Assembly (NCBI GenBank): GCA_032718475.1
Contig: JAUCBJ010000981.1
Location: 23,308-87,307 of the forward strand
From: Nemertoderma westbladi
Lineage: Eukaryota > Animalia > Xenacoelomorpha
Length of the DNA stretch: 64,000 nucleotides
Direction of reading: 5' to 3'
This document shows, one piece after another, positions 17,308 through 57,540 of this stretch. The notes under the pieces are model-generated. The model made no database searches, had not been told where the DNA came from, and saw nothing but the letters and a program-made list of their open reading frames with translations. Numbering within the stretch: the first letter of the stretch is position 1; each line of letters starts with the position of its first letter. The translations under genes were made by a program, and so were the position numbers.

Positions 17308-18232
17308 GATGTCCTTAGATCATTGTAATGATGATGGGGTGATGATAACTCCACCTACTGGCTCCAGAAGTCGAGGAAATCCTGCCAAGTACCTAACTGA
17401 TCTAGACTTTGCTGATGACTTAGGAGTACTCTCAGAATCATTAGAGGGAGCCCAACGGCTCCTCAGCTCATTAGAACATGCTGCTTCTAGTGTTGGTCTT
17501 TTTATTAACTCCAGAAAGACCAAAATTCTGACAGTTAACTTTGAAAGTCCTCAGCAAGTCTCTGATCGGATGAGCATAAGCTCAAAGGATGGTATGCTTG
17601 AGCATGTGGGCGACTTCTGTTACCTGGGATCATGGATCCGGAAGTCAGGTGAGGACCTTCGAATACGTAAGGGAAAGGCATGGGCAGCCTTGAATAGGCT
17701 TTCCAGGATTTGGAAGTCCCCGAGAATTAATCGAAAACTTAAGGTCCGATTATTTAGAGCAGCAGTAGTTCCAGTACTCCTCTACGGGAGTCCATGCTGG
17801 GCTCTAACTGCTGAGGACACCAAATATCTGGATGGCACATTCACAAGAATGCTACGCCGGGTTCATTGTGTCAAGTACAATGCACACATCTCCAACGAGA
17901 CACTATATAACATTGGAGGTGTCTCATTGGTTCCCCCAAGCTTGACACTAGAACAAAATCGCCTCCGCTTTGCAGGACATTGCTTTCGCCGTGAGGACCA
18001 GCCAGTGCATAATCTTGTACTTTGGCAGCCTCATGGAGTGAATAAGCATGGTGGACAGCCCATGACTTTCTTGAGACGCATCTTAAAGGACACTGGCCTT
18101 AAAGATGCGGATGATCTAGCAAATGTCATGGGTGATAGGGAGTTGTGGCGGTGCAATTTTGTTGACAAGCCGGCACAGCATTCTTAAAAATGCAGCTGCA
18201 ATGCAGCATGCCGATCCTAGTAGTAGTAGTAG
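17308..18232 (+). mobile_element. RTE-clade LINE family A, 5'-truncated
   Basis: ORF 17303..18187 with LDFADD, FCYLGS and RLRFAGHC; (TAG)n tail; TSD TAAAAGTGAA at 17298-17307 and 18233-18242. Confidence 0.92.
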
Positions 18233-21132: not shown

Positions 21133-22290
21133 TATGCTTCTTTGACACTACCTATAGAAACAGGGGACTTCACACCTGCCGAACTCCAAAGAAGCATTAA
21201 AAGCATGTCCAATAATAAAGCGAGTGGATTAGATGAAATCCCAGCGGAGGTATGGAAAACCGGAGTGCTAAATAGACCATTATTGAATGTTTGCAACCGG
21301 ATGTTAAAAGGGGAAAAGCCACCACCAATTGGACTAAAGGTCAACTAAAGCGTCTCCCCAAAAAAGGAGACCTCGGCATACCAACAAACTATCGTGGGAT
21401 CTGTCTGCTTGTGGTAGCTGCCAAAATATACAATAAAATGATTCTATATAGGATTAGGCCTCACATAGAGAAACTACTGCGTAAGAGCCAAAACGGATTT
21501 CGACCAAGTAGATCAACAATAGCTCAGATACTTGCACTACGGAGACTGATTGAAGGAATTAAGTCAAAGAATCTCCCCGCAGTCATGACTTTTGTGGACT
21601 TCAAGAAGGCATTCGACTCCATCCATAGAGGTAAAATGCTTGAAATCCTAAGAGCTTATGGAATACCAGAAGTAATTGTTGCTGGCATTGGATTGTTATA
21701 TTGTGACACAGAAGCGCAGGTACTCTCACCAGATGGTGAAACTGAGTTTTTCTCAATCCTGGCTGGCGTACTGCAAGGTGACACATTAGCACCATTACTA
21801 TTTGTAATTGTGCTGGATTATGCAATGAGGACGGCCACAAAGGGTGAAGATCTGGGATTCACACTTCAAGAACGCAGAAGTGATATCCGGCAACTACAGT
21901 CACAGACACCGACTTTGCGGATGACATCGCCCTGCTCTCTAATACGCTAGCAGATGCACAGCTTCTACTAAATAAGGTGGAGAGGGCTGCTAAGGAGGTT
22001 GGATTGCATATAAATGCTACCAAGACCGAATTCATGACCTTTAATGTTGATGGAGACTTGACAACCATTGATAATAATCAACTAAGGAAGGTCGATGACT
22101 TCCAGTACCTTGGATCATGGATAGAGAGTAGCAAAAAGGACATAGAAGTTAGGAAAGCAAAGGCTTGGGTAGCTCTATCAAAAATGGATACCATCTGGAA
22201 ATCAGATCTCTCCAGGCACCTGAAGACTAAGTTCTTTCGAGCCACAGTGGAAAGTGTAATTTTATACGGGGGTGAGACCTGGAAACTATC
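21133..22290 (+). mobile_element. RTE-clade LINE family B fragment (RT), frameshifted
   Basis: KASGLDEIP, NYRGICL, QNGFR, VDFKKAFDS, GVLQGDTLAP, DFADD, FQYLGS; nearly identical to 56190-57208. Confidence 0.92.
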
Positions 22291-39440: not shown

Positions 39441-41929
39441 AATATGCAGAAAGACAGAGATCGACCTTGCAACTCCATGGATCGCACCACCAGATACTGA
39501 TACCAACGTAATCTACATGAACTATCATCTCGTTCCACCACATCGGGGCAATCTGTTTCGCCTGTTAATCTTGATCAACGCGCAACTGGTGGACTTTCCG
39601 ATACTCTCTTGGCTACTCTACTGGGTCCATGCTCAACATTTCTAGCTCTAGTACCTACCTAGGCTGCACTCTGTCATCTACAATTAATCAATCAATAATA
39701 ATAATTAATAACACTTTTTTCCTTTATTCTACATGGAATAGGTTATTCTATGGATTGGACTGTTGTATGTAGTGTACTATATGACTAATGTTGAATACTG
39801 GTTGGTACAACCAATATAGCTAGGGTGACGGGACCGGTATTAATAAAATTGATTGGAAGTATTTCAGGATTGGGATATATATTCGATATCAGGTGATGGA
39901 TGGGTTTTAAATAATAAGTGATTAATGGTATTTTTTTATGAGGATTATTTGTTATATGTAGAAATACTGTTCATATATATAGGTTTTCAATATATATATT
40001 GGGATATATTCGATATTAGGTAATGGGTTTTAAATAATAAGTGATTGCAAGTCAGGGTTTTTTCTGAGGATTATTTGTTATATATAATTCTATCATTTAG
40101 TTTTTTCTCACCTTTTCTTTGTCCAAATATAATTTAGGCCCCACTTCATTATATTTTTTTTTGCATCAAATATCCTTATTTTTTATACTTCACCCATTGG
40201 AGGAGCGTTTGTGATTCTTTTATCTTTCTATACAAATTATTTTTTTTTTCTTAAGGTCTAGTGTCAGCAATAGCGGTTCGGTTTTGGTCTGTTGGTGTAA
40301 AAGTTAACATGCCCCATATTGCCAGCTGATACAGTGGAGTTTATACCCAGACGATGAAGGAATGTAGGAAGGTGGATGGGAATGTGGGAATTAATAAACG
40401 CTGTTATTACCCTCCAATTGAAGGAAAAAAGCAGGTTACAGAAACAGGGTTTTCTAACCAAAACAATAAACGATTTTGTTACCTACCAATTGAGGGAAAG
40501 GAGAATGTTACCGCGGCTGACTTTTCTAACCAAAACAATAAACAACCAGCGGGCACCTTCCCACATTCCCATCCACCCACCCACCCATGTGGCAATAATA
40601 GGTTGATAAATAATTAGCATAAACATAATTATTTAAGTACTATTAGTAGTAAGAAGATTGTGATATCGTGTTAAAGTTAATTGGGAAAGCAATCAGCTGT
40701 AGTTGTTTAATTGGAGCCGTAATTGTGTCATGGGGGAGAGAGTACGAGAAAGGGAGAGAGGGAGATTGCGTGATGTGTAGTGTAGGTTGAAGTGAGAGAG
40801 AATATCGATACTTTTTATTTATTGATTTAACAGTATATTAATTATTGTGAGAGTATATTATATTTGCATTTAACTGATTTATTACATTATACTCAAACTC
40901 AGCTTTTGTTTACACCCACCTTCTTACTACCGTCCGACTGACTGATCAATAGATCATCCCCCTCAAAAAATAAAGGACATCGCGCACGCGCATAAAACAC
41001 TTAATAAAGATAAATTTAATAAAAAATATCGACCAATAAAAAATCGACCGAAAAGTGAAATCCTGGTATTCTTCACATGGGCGGTATTCTTCACATGGGC
41101 CGGCTCCAAAATTTGGCACCAGAGGAGTAGTATTTTGAAAAAAAAAATTAAATAGCGTGAAATGTAATTCCGAGATAAATTGCTTCAAAATTTGAACCTT
41201 CCCGCTCAAACCTGACTGTCTGTAGTCTGTTAATCGGTCAGTAATGTTTGACACTATGACTTCATACCAACTCACTAAAATTATCAACATGGGGGTTTTA
41301 GGGGTCAGTGATTTCCTTTCTGATGTCAGTTTTAATGTTTGGTGGTATCTAATACGTCTGTCTGACAGTTTGTCTGTCTCTCTGCCTTCTAAATTTTACC
41401 GGACAAACTGGTAGACGGAAAGACAGCGATAACTCGAGAACTAAAAAAGATCTTGCAAATCGGTTTTCAGATTTAACTCCCCATTAAATTCTGCATCAGA
41501 TGAAATAAAAAACAAAAATGTGACAATTTTACCCACGGAGGGGGTGACCGAAATCATTTATTTCCCTTGCTTTTTACCAAGGCGATTTAGACTTTCCATA
41601 ACCCCTATAGAGTTTAGACCCGTCAAGTCAAATCACAATTTTCAAAATTTATTGTCAAAATTGGTGTGTACAAACATCTGTGAGTACTCACATTATTCAT
41701 TTAAATATTATTTTGTAGTATTTGCTGGATGTGGGTAGAGCCTAAAAAATAGATGAAAAGGGAATATCAAAATTAAACGGTATATTATAGGAAGGGATCT
41801 AGGGGTCTTAACCTCGAATGATAAGTTTATTTTACCGAAAATAACTTATCTTCTATTGGTGCAAGGGTAGTGTACAAATTTTAGGAAACGCGTAATTTTT
41901 AATGAAATTAATATCTCATACCTCTCCAA

Positions 41930-41972
41930 ACCACGTACGCGTTTCGACATTACTGGGTCTCATCAGCGTGGT
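41930..41972 (-). ncRNA. Minimal type I hammerhead ribozyme
   Basis: accacg CUGAUGA gac-ccaguaau-guc GAAA cgcg UA cguggu: 6-bp stem I, 3-bp stem II, palindromic ACGCGU stem III, GUA triplet. Confidence 0.88.
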
Positions 41973-42036
41973 GTCGGATTCGAACCTGGGACCTCGAGGT
42001 GGAAGCCGAGACTACAACCACTAGGCCACAGGTTCT
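41973..42036 (-). promoter_or_regulatory. tRNA-derived Pol III internal promoter (A and B boxes) directly upstream of the hammerhead
   Basis: Minus strand has TGGCCTAGTGG (A box), a CT-TCC-AC anticodon-like loop and GGTTCGAATCC (B box); T and acceptor stems are broken. Confidence 0.8.
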
Positions 42037-42515
42037 TGAGATATGGTATTAATTGAGATTAGATTGATGAGGTATTAATTTCAAATCCAGCTGCCATAAC
42101 AAACACCTCGATAAATACAGCTTGCCAACACACATTGTTACTATCAATAAAAAAATAAAACGGGGAACACGGCATTACAATTTGAATTTATACTGTCTGC
42201 GGGGCGGGTACTGATTGGATAAATTCATAGTTTATTTTTGACATTCTTGTCGGCTTTTATATATTTTGTATTCATTAATAACTAACGTTTATTTCTAGTT
42301 GCTACAAACCTGCCAGACGTTTATTTCAAGTTGCTACAAACCTGCCAGGAAAAACTGACATTCGCCCAAGAAATACTTTGTGGTCGCAAGATATTGAGCT
42401 TATGTGCCTAGACACGATATAGTTTTTATTGAGTGTAAGATTGGGCACACATGGTTTTAGGCCCAAGTTTATCAATCACCAATTGGGCAATCTATCATGC
42501 AACAAACATATCGTC

Positions 42516-43244
42516 ATGGATATTGAATATCTGCAAATGCTATTGGTTGCTGTTTCTATAGTTACAGAGAAAGTTATAAAGGTTTCATCTATGGATTGTT
42601 TGCACGAAAATACCATGATTACTTTTAGGTCAGCTCGCCCAGATATCATGCCCGACACACCATGGTTTGAAGAACGCCCAGGAGTCAATACAACGGGTTG
42701 TACTTCCTGCCGAATGTTTTTCTCTCAATTGACAGGATTATACTTCGTAAACAGCGAAGAGATCAAAGGTTTGGCGTACAGCAGGGAACAAACCTGCGTA
42801 ACGGAGGAGGTCTGTGAGGAGATCTCCAATGAAGACGAATGCAGGGTGAGATGGAAGGATTTTCATCCTCGAGGTCTAGAACCTCATGAGGATGATGCCT
42901 ACACAGTCCGTGTCCAGATGACACGTCCAAGTTGTCAGACAGTCTGTTGCAACGGGCCAGGCGACTGCAACAAAGTTGAGGACCGAGAGTGGGAACACGA
43001 CTACCTGTTCCCAAACGGGACCGTGGATTGGACCGATTCGAAGTTTGATCCGGTTACAACAACCGAACCGGTTATAACAGTAAAGTCAACCACAGCTGAA
43101 CCGGTTACAACAACCGAACCGGTTATAACAGTAAAGTCAACCACAGCTGAACCATACACAACGACATCAAGTTGGGCAAATAATCTCAATGGAGCTGTGG
43201 CTTCTGTTTTGGTGGCAGTAACTATTCATATTAACTTCTACTGA
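42516..43244 (+). CDS. Putative Ly6/uPAR (three-finger)-like secreted or GPI-anchored protein with a Thr/Pro-rich stalk, 242 aa
   Basis: Uninterrupted ORF from the ATG at 42516; hydrophobic N-terminal stretch; 10 Cys ending CCNGPGDCN; two copies of the 17-aa PVTTTEPVITVKSTTAE; hydrophobic C-terminus after SSWANN. Confidence 0.7.
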   Translation: MDIEYLQMLLVAVSIVTEKVIKVSSMDCLHENTMITFRSARPDIMPDTPWFEERPGVNTTGCTSCRMFFSQLTGLYFVNSEEIKGLAYSREQTCVTEEVCEEISNEDECRVRWKDFHPRGLEPHEDDAYTVRVQMTRPSCQTVCCNGPGDCNKVEDREWEHDYLFPNGTVDWTDSKFDPVTTTEPVITVKSTTAEPVTTTEPVITVKSTTAEPYTTTSSWANNLNGAVASVLVAVTIHINFY

Positions 43245-53811: not shown

Positions 53812-54834
53812 GTCTACTGCTGACGGTGACACAGAACCATTTGAAGTGTTATGGGGCGTCCTCCAAGGAGACACACTTGCACCATTCTTGTTCATTATTG
53901 TGGTTGACTATGTTCTACGCATGTCCTTAGATCATTATAATGATGATGGGGTGATGATAACTCCACCTACTGGCTCCAGAAGTCGAGGAAATCCTGCCAA
54001 GTACCTAACTGATCTAGACTTTGTGATGACTTAGGAGTACTCTCAGAATCATTAGAGGGAGCCCAACGGCTCCTCAGCTCATTAGAACATGCTGCTTCTA
54101 GTGTTGGTCTTTTTATTAACTCCAAAAAGACCAAAATTCTGACAGTTAACTTTGAAAGTCCTCAGCAAGTCTCTGATCGGATGAGCATAAGCTCAAAGGA
54201 TGGTATGCTTGAGCATGTGGACGACTTCTGTTACCTGGGATCATGGATCCGGAAGTCAGGTGAGGACCTTCGAATACGTAAGGGAAAGGCATGGGCAGCC
54301 TTGAATAGGCTTTCCAGGATTTGGAAGTCACCGAGAATTAATCGGAAACTTAAGGTCCGATTATTTAGAGCAGCAGTAGTTCCAGTACTCCTCTATGGGA
54401 GTCCATGCTGGGCTCTAACTGCTGAGGACACCAAATCTCTGGATGGCACATTCACAAGAATGCTACGCCGGGTTCATTGTGTCAAGTACAATGCACACAT
54501 CTCCAACCAGACACTATATAACATTGGAGGTGTCTCATTGGTTCCCCCAAGCTTGACACTAGAACAAAATCGCCTCCACTTTGCAGGACATTGCTTTCGC
54601 CGTGAGGACCAGCCTGTGCATAATCTTGTACTTTGGCAGCCTCATGGAGTGAATAAGCATGGTGGACAGCCCATGACTTTCTTGAGACGCATCTTAAAGG
54701 ACACTGGCCTTGAAGATGCGGATGATCTAGCAAATGTCATGGGTGATAGGGAGTTGTGGCGGTGCAATTTTGTTGACAAGCCGGCACAGCATTCTTAAAA
54801 ATGCCGCTGCAATGCAGCATGCCGATCCTAGTAG
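53812..54834 (+). mobile_element. RTE family A copy inside the Academ element
   Basis: Nearly identical to 17308-18232; TSD TACAGCACTTTGT at 53799 and 54835. Confidence 0.93.
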
Positions 54835-55959
54835 TACAGCACTTTGTAGCACATTTACTACATGCACAGAATTATGCACATGCACTTGCTCTTGTTATTG
54901 ATTACATATGATTCGTATAATTAAAAGAATTGGTATAACTATAATACTAAATAATTTTAATTTACAGTTTTGTGGCTGTGTATTTGATGTATAAACACAT
55001 TATCCTCATAAAAGTATTTTTTAAATATAGATATCACCTTTTGTTTCTATGGAAACGTGCGTCACAGCTCCAATATAACTACTAACCATCTTATATTGCT
55101 ATAAATGCTGTTTATCTCCAGTTCCAATATTAATTACACTAAATTTCAGGCAGTTCCTAGGGAAAGGTCACCTTGTTGCTATGGACACGTGTATCAGCGC
55201 CAATGTTATTACTAACAATCTTATATTGCTAGACAGGTTGATTATCCCAAGTTTCAATCATAATTTCATTAAATATACAACGGTTGCTAGGGAAAGGTCC
55301 CCGGTTATTAAGGAAACGTGTATCAGCGCCTATGTCATCACTAACCATCTTCTATTTCTAGTCAGGTTGATTATCCCAAGTTTCAATCATAATTCCATTA
55401 AATATAGAGCGGTTGCTAGGTAAAGGTCTCCTTGTTGCTATGGAAACGTCTACAGACTTATATTATAAACTAAACCAGTTATATAATCGTAATTTTTGTA
55501 TATGGTGAGTTTCAATAACAGAAATGACCAATTTTACCCGGTTGCTATGTAAAAGTCACTCTGTTGCTAGAGAAGTAGTCAATTTTTTTGGTACACAGGC
55601 TCAGATTAATCTACACATTTTTTTACATATATAGTCATATTTTCATGCTTTTGTCCGGCAATTAACGATTTTCACCTTAAGCGACCCCACTAATACAATG
55701 AATTACTAATTGAATTATTAAGATTAGAAATGAAAACATTTTGCGTGTTAAAATTATGATGCAATACTACAGTATTCCGATTTCACTCACCTCTTGCAAT
55801 ACTACTCCGTTCTTTATACTGTATGCTCATATTTGACGCGAAATAACTTAATTGTTTTATCTTTTATAATAATTTTCCTCCCACATTTTGCGCGTTAAAA
55901 TTACGATGCACGATACACGATTACACACGATACATACGTACCATACACGATTGATATTT

Positions 55960-57540
55960 TCGTAATGATTTACATAATCCCGATTATGTTAGAGTGTGGT
56001 TCACTCGAGTCCGCTTAATGTCACACAGCCTGCAGATCGAAAAGGGTAGATGGAGTAGAACTCCCACCCAAGATCGTGTTTGTGTTTGTGATAAGTCGCT
56101 GTGCAGACTGAGGAACACGTTCTGACTGCTTGTCCTTTATCTGAGTGTATCCGTGATGAATATAGCAAACAATTGAACCTAAAGTCTTTACTACTACTAC
56201 TAGGTCGAGCGAACTCGGACAGTGGAAATGAGATCCTTCCAGGCTTCCCTATTCTCCATAGTTGTCGCAATTTCGTTTCTCCCAAGTTCAGTATCCCTTT
56301 CAAGTTGATCTATATATGTTATGGCAGGTCGTCCACAACTACGCTTTCCATGAGTTGGATGCCAGAGAAGTAGATCTGGTATGACCTCGTCTTTACTTCG
56401 CCTTTTAAGTGCCCACTGAATCTTAATCTGCAAGCACGGAGGGTGGTTGATACAGGTGGTATTGTACCATAAAGCTCGGCGTTTGTCATGTGTTGTCTCC
56501 AGCTGATGTTTAGGGCTGCCCTTAGTAGTCTTGTGTAGCAACCATCAATTCGTTGTTCAAGTGATTTAGTCAGTGTCCAGGTCTCACCCCCGTATAAAAA
56601 TACACTTTCCACTGTGGCTCGAAAGAACTTAGTCTTCAGGTGCCTGGAGAGATCTGATTTCCAGATGGTATCCATTTTTGATAGAGCTACCCAAGCCTTT
56701 GCTTTCCTAACTTCTATGTCCTTTTTGCTACTCTCTATCCATGATCCAAGGTACTGGAAGTCATCGACCTTCCTTAGTTGATTATTATCAATGGTTGTCA
56801 AGTTTCCATCAACATTAAAGGTCATGAATTCGGTCTTGGTAGCATTTATATGCAATCCAACCTCCTTAGCAGCCCTCTCCACTTTATTTAGTAGAAGCTG
56901 TGCATCTGCTAGCGTATTAGAGAGCAGGGCGATGTCATCCGCAAAGTCGGTGTCTGTGACTGTAGTTGCCGGATATCTACTACTTCTGCGTTCCTGAAGC
57001 ATGAATCCCAGATCTTCACCCTTTGTGGCCGTCATCATTGCGTAATCCAGCACAATTACAAATAGTAATGGTGCTAATGTGTCACCTTGCAGTACGCCAG
57101 CCAGGATTGAGAAAAACTCAGTTTCACCATCTGGTGAGAGTACCTGCGCTTCTGTGTCACAATATAACAATCCAATGCCAGCAACAATTACTTCTGGTAT
57201 TCCATAAGTAGTTTCTTTAAGTAGCATTTTCTATGAAAATACCGATAAACTTGAGGTAGTATGTAAATTTATTTCTGATGTTATTGGCCTTTACTAGTTT
57301 AAATTCAATATAATTTTGGTTTCACTTATGTATGACATTGCCTTGTATTACATTGTATATTTATTTATGATTGATTAATTTGTGCATTCTTATATTTATA
57401 TTATGGTGGCTTACTGTATTTTGGTTTCAATCAAGTAGAAAGACATTATTAAGTACAATTTATGGAATGACTGTGCTTGTTACATTACTTAGGTACATGT
57501 TACTGGCTGTTGGGGCGTTTTAACGAATAAATTAATTAAA
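55960..57540 (+). mobile_element. 3' end of an L2/CR1-group LINE, split by an RTE-B copy
   Basis: TRVRLMSHSLQIEKGRW..RVCVC..QTEEHVLTAC before 56190; VVCKFISDVIGLY* after 57209; AATAAA tail at ~57526; limits approximate. Confidence 0.7.
56190..57208 (-). mobile_element. RTE family B, 5'-truncated
   Basis: ORF 56319..57227 with GVLQGDTLAP and DFADD; (TAG)n tail. Confidence 0.93.

What the first reader, a model, noticed from the sequence alone, without database searches (positions are those of the whole stretch)
41885..42083. tRNA-headed Pol III cassette fused directly to a hammerhead ribozyme
Seen on the minus strand: A box TGGCCTAGTGG, a Gly(TCC)-like anticodon loop, B box GGTTCGAATCC, and immediately a minimal type I hammerhead (41930-41972). 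Known: Schistosoma SM-alpha couples a tRNA-like Pol III promoter to a hammerhead, and minimal hammerheads with a palindromic stem III are thought to cleave as dimers. Inference: a SINE/retrozyme hybrid that could process its own transcript. It lies ~480 bp upstream of, and divergent from, the only host-like gene.
Basis: partly seen in the sequence, partly recalled or inferred. Interest (0 to 1): 0.72.

Follow-up and report, generated by a model that had tools for sequence, protein, structure and literature searches.

The report
tRNA-headed hammerhead retrozyme, inverted insertion
This is one insertion, missing from the same spot in another sample, of an abundant non-coding repeat of about 411 bases in a likely animal genome that puts a tRNA-like promoter motif in front of a hammerhead ribozyme motif; it likely spreads as a self-cutting RNA pasted back by Penelope-type transposon enzymes, a design close to the known blood-fluke Sm-alpha repeats.

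Summary
The A box, B box and type I hammerhead lie inside a 377-bp insertion (41781-42157) between 6-bp target duplications; one contig of run X2 shows the empty site. Summed contig depth is thousands of times that of the flanks, and many contigs span head and hammerhead together, so they form one family; the unit is about 411 nt. The window copy is a tail-less main copy plus the family's 62-nt tail in inverted orientation. Two preferred ends and recurrent inversions match Penelope-like insertions. The hammerhead is the canonical animal form (1-bp helix III, palindromic loop), predicted to fold as a dimer; Gly(TCC) ancestry is unsupported. A downstream 10-nt antisense strand is predicted to block the core when transcription starts at the element's own promoter, but not in read-through RNA. 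Best reading: a Pol III-headed non-LTR retrozyme, like Sm-alpha, likely moved by a Penelope enzyme; this solitary copy is likely a dead end. Cleavage, transcription, circles and the partner are untested. The scan noted what is probably this family before, elsewhere in this genome, and similar designs in others.

The parts
41775..41780 (+). Left target-site duplication AAACGG
   Evidence: Identical to 42158-42163; X2 contig joins 41774 to 42158 with 6 letters fitting either side
41781..42157 (.). Whole insertion, 377 bp, 38% G+C
   Evidence: Summed depth rises from 28-338 in flank bins to 1e5-8e5 between about 41783 and 42158; length and G+C
41781..42097 (-). Main copy of the unit in RNA sense: left arm, tRNA-like head, hammerhead, right arm, body; ends at the first preferred end (end A, near 41783)
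   Evidence: Loose ends with unlike flanks before 41783/41785 in 44+13 (X1), 36+13 (X2), 42 (X3) contigs
42096..42157 (+). Tail of the unit (62 nt, 71% A+C, A-rich end = end B), inverted in this copy; 2-nt overlap with the main copy at 42096-42097
   Evidence: In other copies the body end lies directly before 42096 on the same strand: joint 41783/42096 in X1, X2, X3, X5; loose ends in 17 (X1) and 30 (X2) contigs; composition
42040..42083 (-). Left arm of an inverted repeat enclosing head and hammerhead; carries a copy-specific insertion of about 24 nt (42047-42071)
   Evidence: Inverted repeats I4 and I17; depth 0 over 42049-42059 in all four runs and a 23+1 nt gap in X5
41976..42035 (-). tRNA-like head; predicted rod-shaped hairpin
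   Evidence: no tRNA call by ARAGORN or Rfam
42018..42028 (-). Pol III A box motif
41976..41986 (-). Pol III B box motif; its 3' end overlaps the lower extension of hammerhead stem I
41930..41972 (-). Type I hammerhead motif, predicted cut after 41936; stem II has 3 bp here and 4 bp in the family majority (position 41949)
   Evidence: 41949 differs in 346,846 of 346,864 (X1) and 518,152 of 518,569 (X2) summed depth
41903..41929 (-). Right arm, complementary to the left arm
   Evidence: arm pairing probability 0.6-0.97 at 37 C when the left arm is in the transcript
41885..41894 (-). 10-nt perfect antisense copy of the hammerhead's GAAACGCGUA (core, helix III, cut site); predicted lock
   Evidence: matched by 5 of 2000 shuffles; no majority change listed there
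41864..41880 (.). Site of a copy-specific deletion (X5 contig has 52 nt where the window has 15)
   Evidence: Depth dip and table 8, record 25
41838..41841 (-). Only run of four U in the main copy; possible leaky Pol III stop
   Evidence: function inferred
42158..42163 (+). Right target-site duplication AAACGG

Best explanation
The feature is the middle of one 377-bp insertion of a high-copy non-coding repeat of about 411 nt that joins Pol III A/B box motifs to a type I hammerhead motif, and the family is likely a non-LTR retrozyme that would be transcribed from its tRNA-like head, cut by paired hammerheads in multi-unit RNA and reinserted by the enzyme of a Penelope-like element. Shown: family, unit anatomy, two preferred ends about 60-70 nt apart, recurrent inverted tail, 6-bp duplication, empty allele. 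Inferred: Pol III starts in one unit of a tandem and reads into the next; hammerheads pair through the palindromic helix III and release unit-length RNA that may circularise; a PLE reverse transcriptase starts at two internal sites flanking the A+C-rich tail, one per target strand, and the two cDNAs are joined head to head. The template carried an intact hammerhead junction and the upstream arm, so it was a multimer or a circle, not a plain transcript from the unit's own promoter. Predicted only: the upstream arm keeps the hammerhead foldable, and without it a 10-nt antisense strand blocks the core. The window copy is likely a dead end.
For: Depth and linked contigs. Empty site and 6-bp duplication. 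One 441-nt contig of run X5 starts and ends with the same stretch and reads body, tail, 17 nt, arm, head, hammerhead, body, i.e. a closed unit of about 411 nt. Five of the 15 joints shown (41804/42107, 41811/42096, 41816/42130, 41844/42113, 41850/42126), 1 of 4 (41933/42130) and an X4 loose end at 42011 are other inverted body-plus-tail copies of different lengths. PLE insertions are described with an inverted 5' copy and a tail at one end only (PMC8557442), and PLE RT starts at two internal sites in an AC-rich region downstream of the hammerhead, the tail being the stretch between them (PMC11167929). Size, low G+C, type I hammerhead and a TSD over 4 bp fit non-LTR retrozymes (PMC7229834); a 1-bp helix III with palindromic tetraloop is the axolotl Amex1 form that cleaves poorly alone and much better as a dimer. 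The double hammerhead equals the minimum-energy dimer, -36.1 against -27.8 kcal/mol for two monomers. No long reading frame follows the hammerhead.
Against: No autonomous PLE was seen: no genome is held and none of 38 window ORFs scanned has a GIY-YIG hit. The tail-to-head junction that closes the unit was seen in 1 contig only, from run X5 (another organism label, RNA status a guess), and in none of the joints shown for X1-X4 (tables cut). A closed contig cannot tell a circle from a tandem. The empty site rests on 1 contig in 1 run; X3, the same sample, does not list it. The tail (about 62-70 nt) is longer than the 30-40 nt described for PLEs and its own fold is weak (z -1.16). Near-invariance of the core reflects a young family and is no proof of selection; covariation was not testable. 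In print, 8 of 9 Xenopus retrozyme dimers did not cleave in vitro and the PAc hammerhead was dispensable for insertion in vitro. With a 2-nt shorter fragment and no lower stem I, the double hammerhead scored -25.7 against -34.8 for an inactive dimer. The lock weakens when the majority stem II is mimicked (stem I probability 0.08-0.44 at 37 C).
Confidence: 0.7

Rival explanations
1. It is a tRNA-derived SINE that carries a hammerhead but is moved by a LINE; the inversion is ordinary twin priming at an A-rich tail.
For: End B is A-rich with an AATAAA and is followed by a 6-bp duplication. Young LINE-type RT copies lie in the window (17309-18225 and 53921-54836 are 98.6% identical; RVT_1 hits). 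An unchecked scan note reports a 412-base array fused to a LINE tail (e1-10596620).
Against: Most unique flanks shown attach at the internal end A, which has no poly(A). Inversions recur around the same body/tail boundary. BLAST of 41701-42300 against the window found only short AT-rich matches at E 0.11 or worse and no shared LINE end (the window only). About 60 nt upstream of the head belong to the unit, unlike a plain SINE.
Confidence: 0.15
2. These are truncated terminal repeats (pLTRs) of an autonomous Penelope element whose own repeat carries a tRNA-derived promoter.
For: The insertion signature is that of PLEs. In PAc the ORF starts at the hammerhead and the RT start sites lie inside the first 172 nt of the ORF; an ATG sits inside this core too. 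Unchecked scan notes report this arrangement in other genomes.
Against: The frame from that ATG stops after 14 codons and all three frames of the body stop (the window copy is damaged). The X5 contig closes on itself with no ORF. Flanks beyond end B are unlike each other (agreement 0.54-0.65). The hammerhead is canonical, not the PLE minimal form (PMC4209133). Rare full-length copies would have been missed.
Confidence: 0.1
3. The family spreads at the DNA level (satellite or MITE-like) and both promoter and hammerhead are inert relics.
For: No RNA or cleavage was shown; inverted arms exist and one X2 contig has lost the part between them (41919/42072).
Against: The arms are internal, not terminal; variable one-sided truncation, inversion, short filler letters and a target duplication point to reverse transcription; the core is intact in over 99% of summed depth in X1 and X2.
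Confidence: 0.05

Closest known systems
Schistosoma Sm-alpha / Sj-alpha SINE-like hammerhead retroposons (passages of PMC6765202, and PMC2770079; Ferbeyre 1998 not held; Laha 2000 not read)
   Same: tRNA-derived Pol III promoter followed by a hammerhead; over 10,000 copies in Schistosoma; single copies said to be unable to propagate because an upstream unit must transcribe the next.
   Different: Sequence kinship was not tested. Here a Penelope-like inverted tail, two preferred ends, enclosing arms and an antisense lock are seen; the passages read mention none of these for Sm-alpha. Helix III here is 1 bp.
Metazoan non-LTR retrozymes (PMC7229834, passages and parts 2-4 of 6; bioRxiv 10.64898/2026.07.22.740005, parts 1-3 of 5)
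   Same: Non-coding unit within 150-450 nt, G+C under 50%, canonical type I hammerhead, TSD over 4 bp, PLEs proposed as partners; helix III like axolotl Amex1.
   Different: PMC7229834 has 0 occurrences of 'Pol III' or 'SINE' and names no internal promoter; it says most animal retrozyme circles leave the hammerhead unblocked, whereas this unit has an antisense strand. Tandems and circular RNA are not shown here.
EN+ Penelope-like elements, e.g. PAc of Anolis (PMC11167929, parts 1-2 of 4; PMC8557442, passages; PMC4209133, parts 1-2 of 4)
   Same: Hammerhead upstream of two preferred ends, A+C-rich tail at one end only, inverted 5' copy, AT-rich targets.
   Different: No RT/GIY-YIG frame; canonical rather than minimal hammerhead; tail about twice as long; tRNA-like head.

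Membership tests
Non-LTR retrozyme | Type I hammerhead with intact core in a 150-450 nt non-coding, low-G+C unit | tested here: met
   unit about 411 nt, 38% G+C, no long frame
Non-LTR retrozyme | Target duplication longer than 4 bp | tested here: met
   6 bp, with an empty allele in 1 contig of X2
Non-LTR retrozyme | Head-to-tail tandem copies | tested here: inconclusive
   Closed unit in 1 contig of X5 only; no second copy in the window; arrays are claimed in unchecked scan notes
Non-LTR retrozyme | Self-cleavage and linear/circular unit RNA | not testable with these tools
   Only contigs were available; folding supports a double hammerhead
tRNA-derived SINE | A and B boxes at tRNA spacing | tested here: met
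   31-nt spacer; 1 observed, 0 in 100 shuffles
tRNA-derived SINE | Recognisable tRNA ancestry of the head | tested here: inconclusive
   No ARAGORN or Rfam tRNA hit; rod fold; no host tRNA set to compare
tRNA-derived SINE | Element begins 10-15 nt before the A box | tested here: not met
   The unit extends about 70 nt upstream of the A box in the window and further in X5
tRNA-derived SINE | 3' end shared with a partner LINE | tested here: inconclusive
   No shared end within the 64-kb window; genome not held
Autonomous Penelope-like element | RT plus GIY-YIG reading frame | tested here: not met
   rare full-length copies elsewhere not excluded
Penelope-like element (insertion signature) | Inverted 5' copy, tail at one end only, two preferred 3' ends | tested here: met
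   against PMC8557442 and PMC11167929
Penelope-like element | Minimal hammerhead (long helix II, bulge after A9, no helix III) | tested here: not met
   Helix I 6 bp, helix II 4 bp in the majority, no bulge against PMC4209133
Sm-alpha / Sj-alpha | Sequence homology and Pol III transcription | not testable with these tools
   No Sm-alpha sequence came from any tool; no RNA assay

The most novel reading that the evidence does not exclude
A self-promoting retrozyme with a built-in switch: its Pol III head lets it transcribe itself, its hammerhead is silenced by an antisense strand in the promoter-proximal unit and released by the upstream arm in read-through units, so only tandem arrays yield circles, and a Penelope enzyme primes twice on such a circle to give copies like this one, which holds almost exactly one turn of the unit (all but about 17 and 9 nt at the two priming points). 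That would make it a SINE class that depends on PLEs instead of LINEs and explain how Sm-alpha-like repeats move.
Probability: 0.25. Interest if true: 0.7.

Novelty: new variant of a known kind. Interest (0 to 1): 0.45.

Why it matters
Both halves are known: a Pol III head plus hammerhead (Sm-alpha) and retrozymes as likely Penelope passengers. What this family adds is a young, still polymorphic element in which the two are joined and whose insertions carry the Penelope signature, so the open questions of who transcribes and who mobilises animal retrozymes become testable on one 411-nt RNA: with an empty allele, two mappable priming sites and a predicted fold switch. My searches turned up no paper describing a tRNA-headed, PLE-mobilised hammerhead SINE outside schistosomes, but I saw most hits only as listings, and Repbase, Dfam and most subscription papers were not searchable.

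Tried and rejected
No whole genome is held, so copy number, arrays and partner could not be counted directly. No RNA holder was listed; this says nothing on expression. X5 is RNA only by a guess and covers the element but not its flanks, which trace DNA of a high-copy repeat would also give. No second copy in the window. A general B-box-plus-core pattern gave 0 loci in viral contigs, 80 (the cap) in metagenomes and 15 in prokaryotic genomes; none of these 95 matches the family beyond one 19-nt B-box match. A family-specific core pattern gave 0 in viral contigs. A sequence look-up in earlier scan notes gave nothing. An 1,831-nt multi-copy contig in X4 looked like a possible autonomous partner but has changes at G5, A13 and U16.1 and an inverted tail, so I read it as a decayed copy inside another repeat. 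A MITE reading of the 41903/42083 inverted repeat was dropped: it is internal. An opposite-strand hammerhead at the second ACGCGT was dropped: the scan finds no core there. The host taxon was not identified: the neighbouring ORF had 0 hits among 708 candidates, no Pfam hit and only sub-threshold atlas leads; a transposon-like ORF gave 41 unnamed or hypothetical hits. Ferbeyre 1998 was not held. No supplements were read; those of PMC7229834 and the 2026 preprint could list tRNA-headed families.

Full report
Observation. The minus strand carries an A box at 42028-42018, a B box at 41986-41976 and a type I hammerhead motif at 41972-41930 with a predicted cut after 41936. My descriptor finds this one hammerhead on both strands of the window; 100 block shuffles gave none with stem I of 6 bp or more and stem II of 3 bp or more, and none had an A+B pair against one observed. 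Rfam gives nothing at gathering threshold and Hammerhead_HH9 at only 18.3 bits, E 0.16. ARAGORN and Rfam call no tRNA and the head folds as a rod, so 'Gly(TCC)' is a loop resemblance only. By the definitions in PMC4209133 (parts 1-2 of 4 read) the motif is the canonical metazoan form, not the PLE minimal form.

Context. The window is repeat-rich, with several RT fragments and a DDE transposase; an animal host is my inference from this content and from weak atlas leads. No genome is held, so I laid public contigs on the region: runs X1, X2, X3, X5 on 41550-42450 (826, 1098, 1918 and 1 records laid) and X1, X2, X4, X5 on 41895-42200 (399, 572, 35 and 1). X1-X4 share one organism label (three samples; one may be the window's source); X5 has another.

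It is a high-copy family. Summed depth over the hammerhead bin is 448,000, 522,000 and 656,000 in X1, X2, X3, against about 30-50, 80-160 and 45-90 in most flank bins. The tool warns that this is not a copy number; I take it as 'thousands'. The plateau runs from about 41783 to 42158 without a drop at the predicted cut, and listed contigs in all five runs span hammerhead and head together (for example X2 41936-42043, X4 41896-42011, X5 41880-42097). So head and hammerhead are one unit. The window copy departs from the majority by an insertion of about 24 nt in the left arm, a deletion between 41864 and 41880, and four substitutions, one of which (41949) removes the fourth pair of stem II. No other hammerhead position varies above 1% of summed depth in X1 or X2; this shows youth, not selection.

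It is a recent insertion. One X2 contig, at single-copy depth (83), joins 41774 to 42158; the six letters that fit either side, AAACGG, flank the element at 41775-41780 and 42158-42163. X1 and X3 do not list that joint among the 15 shown (30 were cut). The neighbouring ORF (ATG 42516; no homologues; no Pfam hit) is 353 bp away; an element missing from some alleles is unlikely to be its fixed regulator.

Anatomy. X5's single 441-nt contig begins and ends with the same stretch and reads, in RNA sense: body end, 8 nt, tail (42096-42155), 17 nt, left arm, head, hammerhead, right arm, body. That is a closed unit of about 411 nt, either a tandem or a circle. The body-to-tail junction is also in X1, X2, X3; the tail-to-head junction was seen only in X5. 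Unique flanks attach at two places: end A near 41783 (44+13 contigs in X1, 36+13 in X2, 42 in X3; agreement 0.43-0.5) and end B after the A-rich tail (10, 11 and 13 contigs; 445 loose-end rows were cut). In the window the tail is absent from the body end and sits inverted at the other end, overlapping the main copy by 2 nt. Five of 15 joints shown, one of four and an X4 loose end are further inverted body-plus-tail copies of different lengths, several with short filler; one (41933/42130, 1 contig) stops 2 nt from the predicted cut. The window's own junction is rare (depth 22 in X1, 3,480 in X2 at 42082-42092), so these are not deletions of a fixed inverted form.

Mechanism. PLE insertions are described with an inverted 5' copy and a 30-40 bp tail at one end (PMC8557442, 12 of 18 passages). 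For PAc, RT starts at two internal sites in an AC-rich stem-loop downstream of the hammerhead, the tail is the stretch between them, both target strands are cut and extended, and the hammerhead is not needed for insertion in vitro (PMC11167929, parts 1-2 of 4). Ends A and B, the 71% A+C tail and the head-to-head join fit this; the tail is longer than usual and folds weakly. The copy contains an intact cut site and about 60 nt upstream of the head, so I infer a multimeric or circular template. It holds one turn of the unit less about 17 and 9 nt, as double priming on a circle would give, though a dimer would do too. No long frame follows the hammerhead, and 0 of 38 window ORFs scanned, out of 76 listed, hit GIY-YIG: the partner is inferred, not found.

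Ribozyme. Helix III is one A-U pair with a CGCG loop, like axolotl Amex1, which cleaved 6% in an hour as a monomer and much more as a dimer (PMC7229834). Two copies of 41925-41979 co-fold with the double hammerhead equal to the minimum-energy dimer (-36.1 kcal/mol; two monomers -27.8); a fragment 2 nt shorter, scored without the lower stem I, favoured an inactive dimer (-34.8 against -25.7). A perfect 10-nt complement of GAAACGCGUA lies at 41885-41894 (5 of 2000 shuffles reach 10 nt). In RNA starting at the head (42035-42040) and reaching that strand, stem I probability is 0.00-0.01; with the left arm present (start at 42070 or beyond) it is 0.78-0.94. With a -3 kcal/mol bonus standing in for the majority stem II, the head-start values rise to 0.08-0.44 at 37 C. 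In longer head-start RNAs the antisense pairing itself drops to about 0.3, other folds sharing the blocking. The switch is a prediction on one damaged copy. PMC7229834 states that most animal retrozyme circles leave the hammerhead unblocked. Against easy assumptions of activity, 8 of 9 Xenopus dimers did not cleave (10.64898/2026.07.22.740005, parts 1-3 of 5).

Comparison. It works like Sm-alpha as summarised in passages of PMC6765202 and PMC2770079: Pol III promoter, then hammerhead, with propagation needing an upstream unit. I could not test kinship, and the primary paper was not held. It meets the tested sequence criteria of non-LTR retrozymes, with tandems inconclusive and RNA untested; it fails the autonomous-PLE test and one SINE criterion. 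I also read passages of PMC7761336, PMC10886601 and PMC8969392. Nine searches showed no description of this combination outside schistosomes; most hits were seen as listings only and no supplements were read. 'Twin priming' for L1 is recalled, from no call.

Earlier scan notes (unchecked AI notes, read after I had reached the 411-nt unit and the PLE reading) describe 411-412-base tRNA-headed hammerhead units elsewhere in this genome, as arrays, as an inverted polymorphic insertion and once fused to a LINE tail, and tRNA-headed pLTRs in other genomes. I could not compare sequences (one search found none), so they are leads. They pointed me to PMC11167929 and PMC2770079 and supplied the pLTR rival.

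Verdict. Real, a new variant of a known kind. Confidence 0.7 in a Pol III-headed, PLE-mobilised retrozyme; interest 0.45.

Noticed in passing
L002-L083, e.g. L003:652-770, L012:649-790, L013:347-470, L028:651-800, L029:649-780: A B-box-plus-core pattern returned many intact prokaryote- or phage-like tRNA genes (often Glu-TTC) followed within a few bases of the CCA by a foldable type I hammerhead: stems I and II of 4 bp or more in 44 of 80 metagenome loci (capped) and 1 of 15 genome loci; ARAGORN finds a tRNA in 45 of the 60 loci scanned. No shuffle control. It recalls the tRNA-linked theta ribozymes (from memory); searches showed no paper describing it. Unrelated to the window family.
   Followed up: partly
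window 42516-43244 (+): Intronless 242-aa ORF with signal-like start, cysteine-rich domain, Thr-rich repeats and hydrophobic end; no homologues or Pfam hit; atlas leads of 0.75-0.84 to Ly6/uPAR and receptor ectodomains, below the reliable range.
   Followed up: partly
window 41896-42011, run X4 record 17: A decayed, inverted copy of the element ends an 1,831-nt contig of raised depth (401), so it has probably been amplified inside another repeat.
   Followed up: no
window 41783-42155, run X5: A run with a different organism label holds a near-identical closed unit and none of the flanks: trace contamination, prey or symbiont, abundant circular RNA, or horizontal transfer.
   Followed up: no
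window 41919-42072, run X2: One contig lacks the whole head and hammerhead between the two inverted arms.
   Followed up: no
window 42285-42348: Two tandem 32-nt copies (97% identical) between the element and the neighbouring ORF; the region varies between runs.
   Followed up: no
window 17309-18225 and 53921-54836; 21655-22287 and 56572-57208: Pairs of RT-bearing retroelement fragments 98% identical, so recently active LINE-type families.
   Followed up: no
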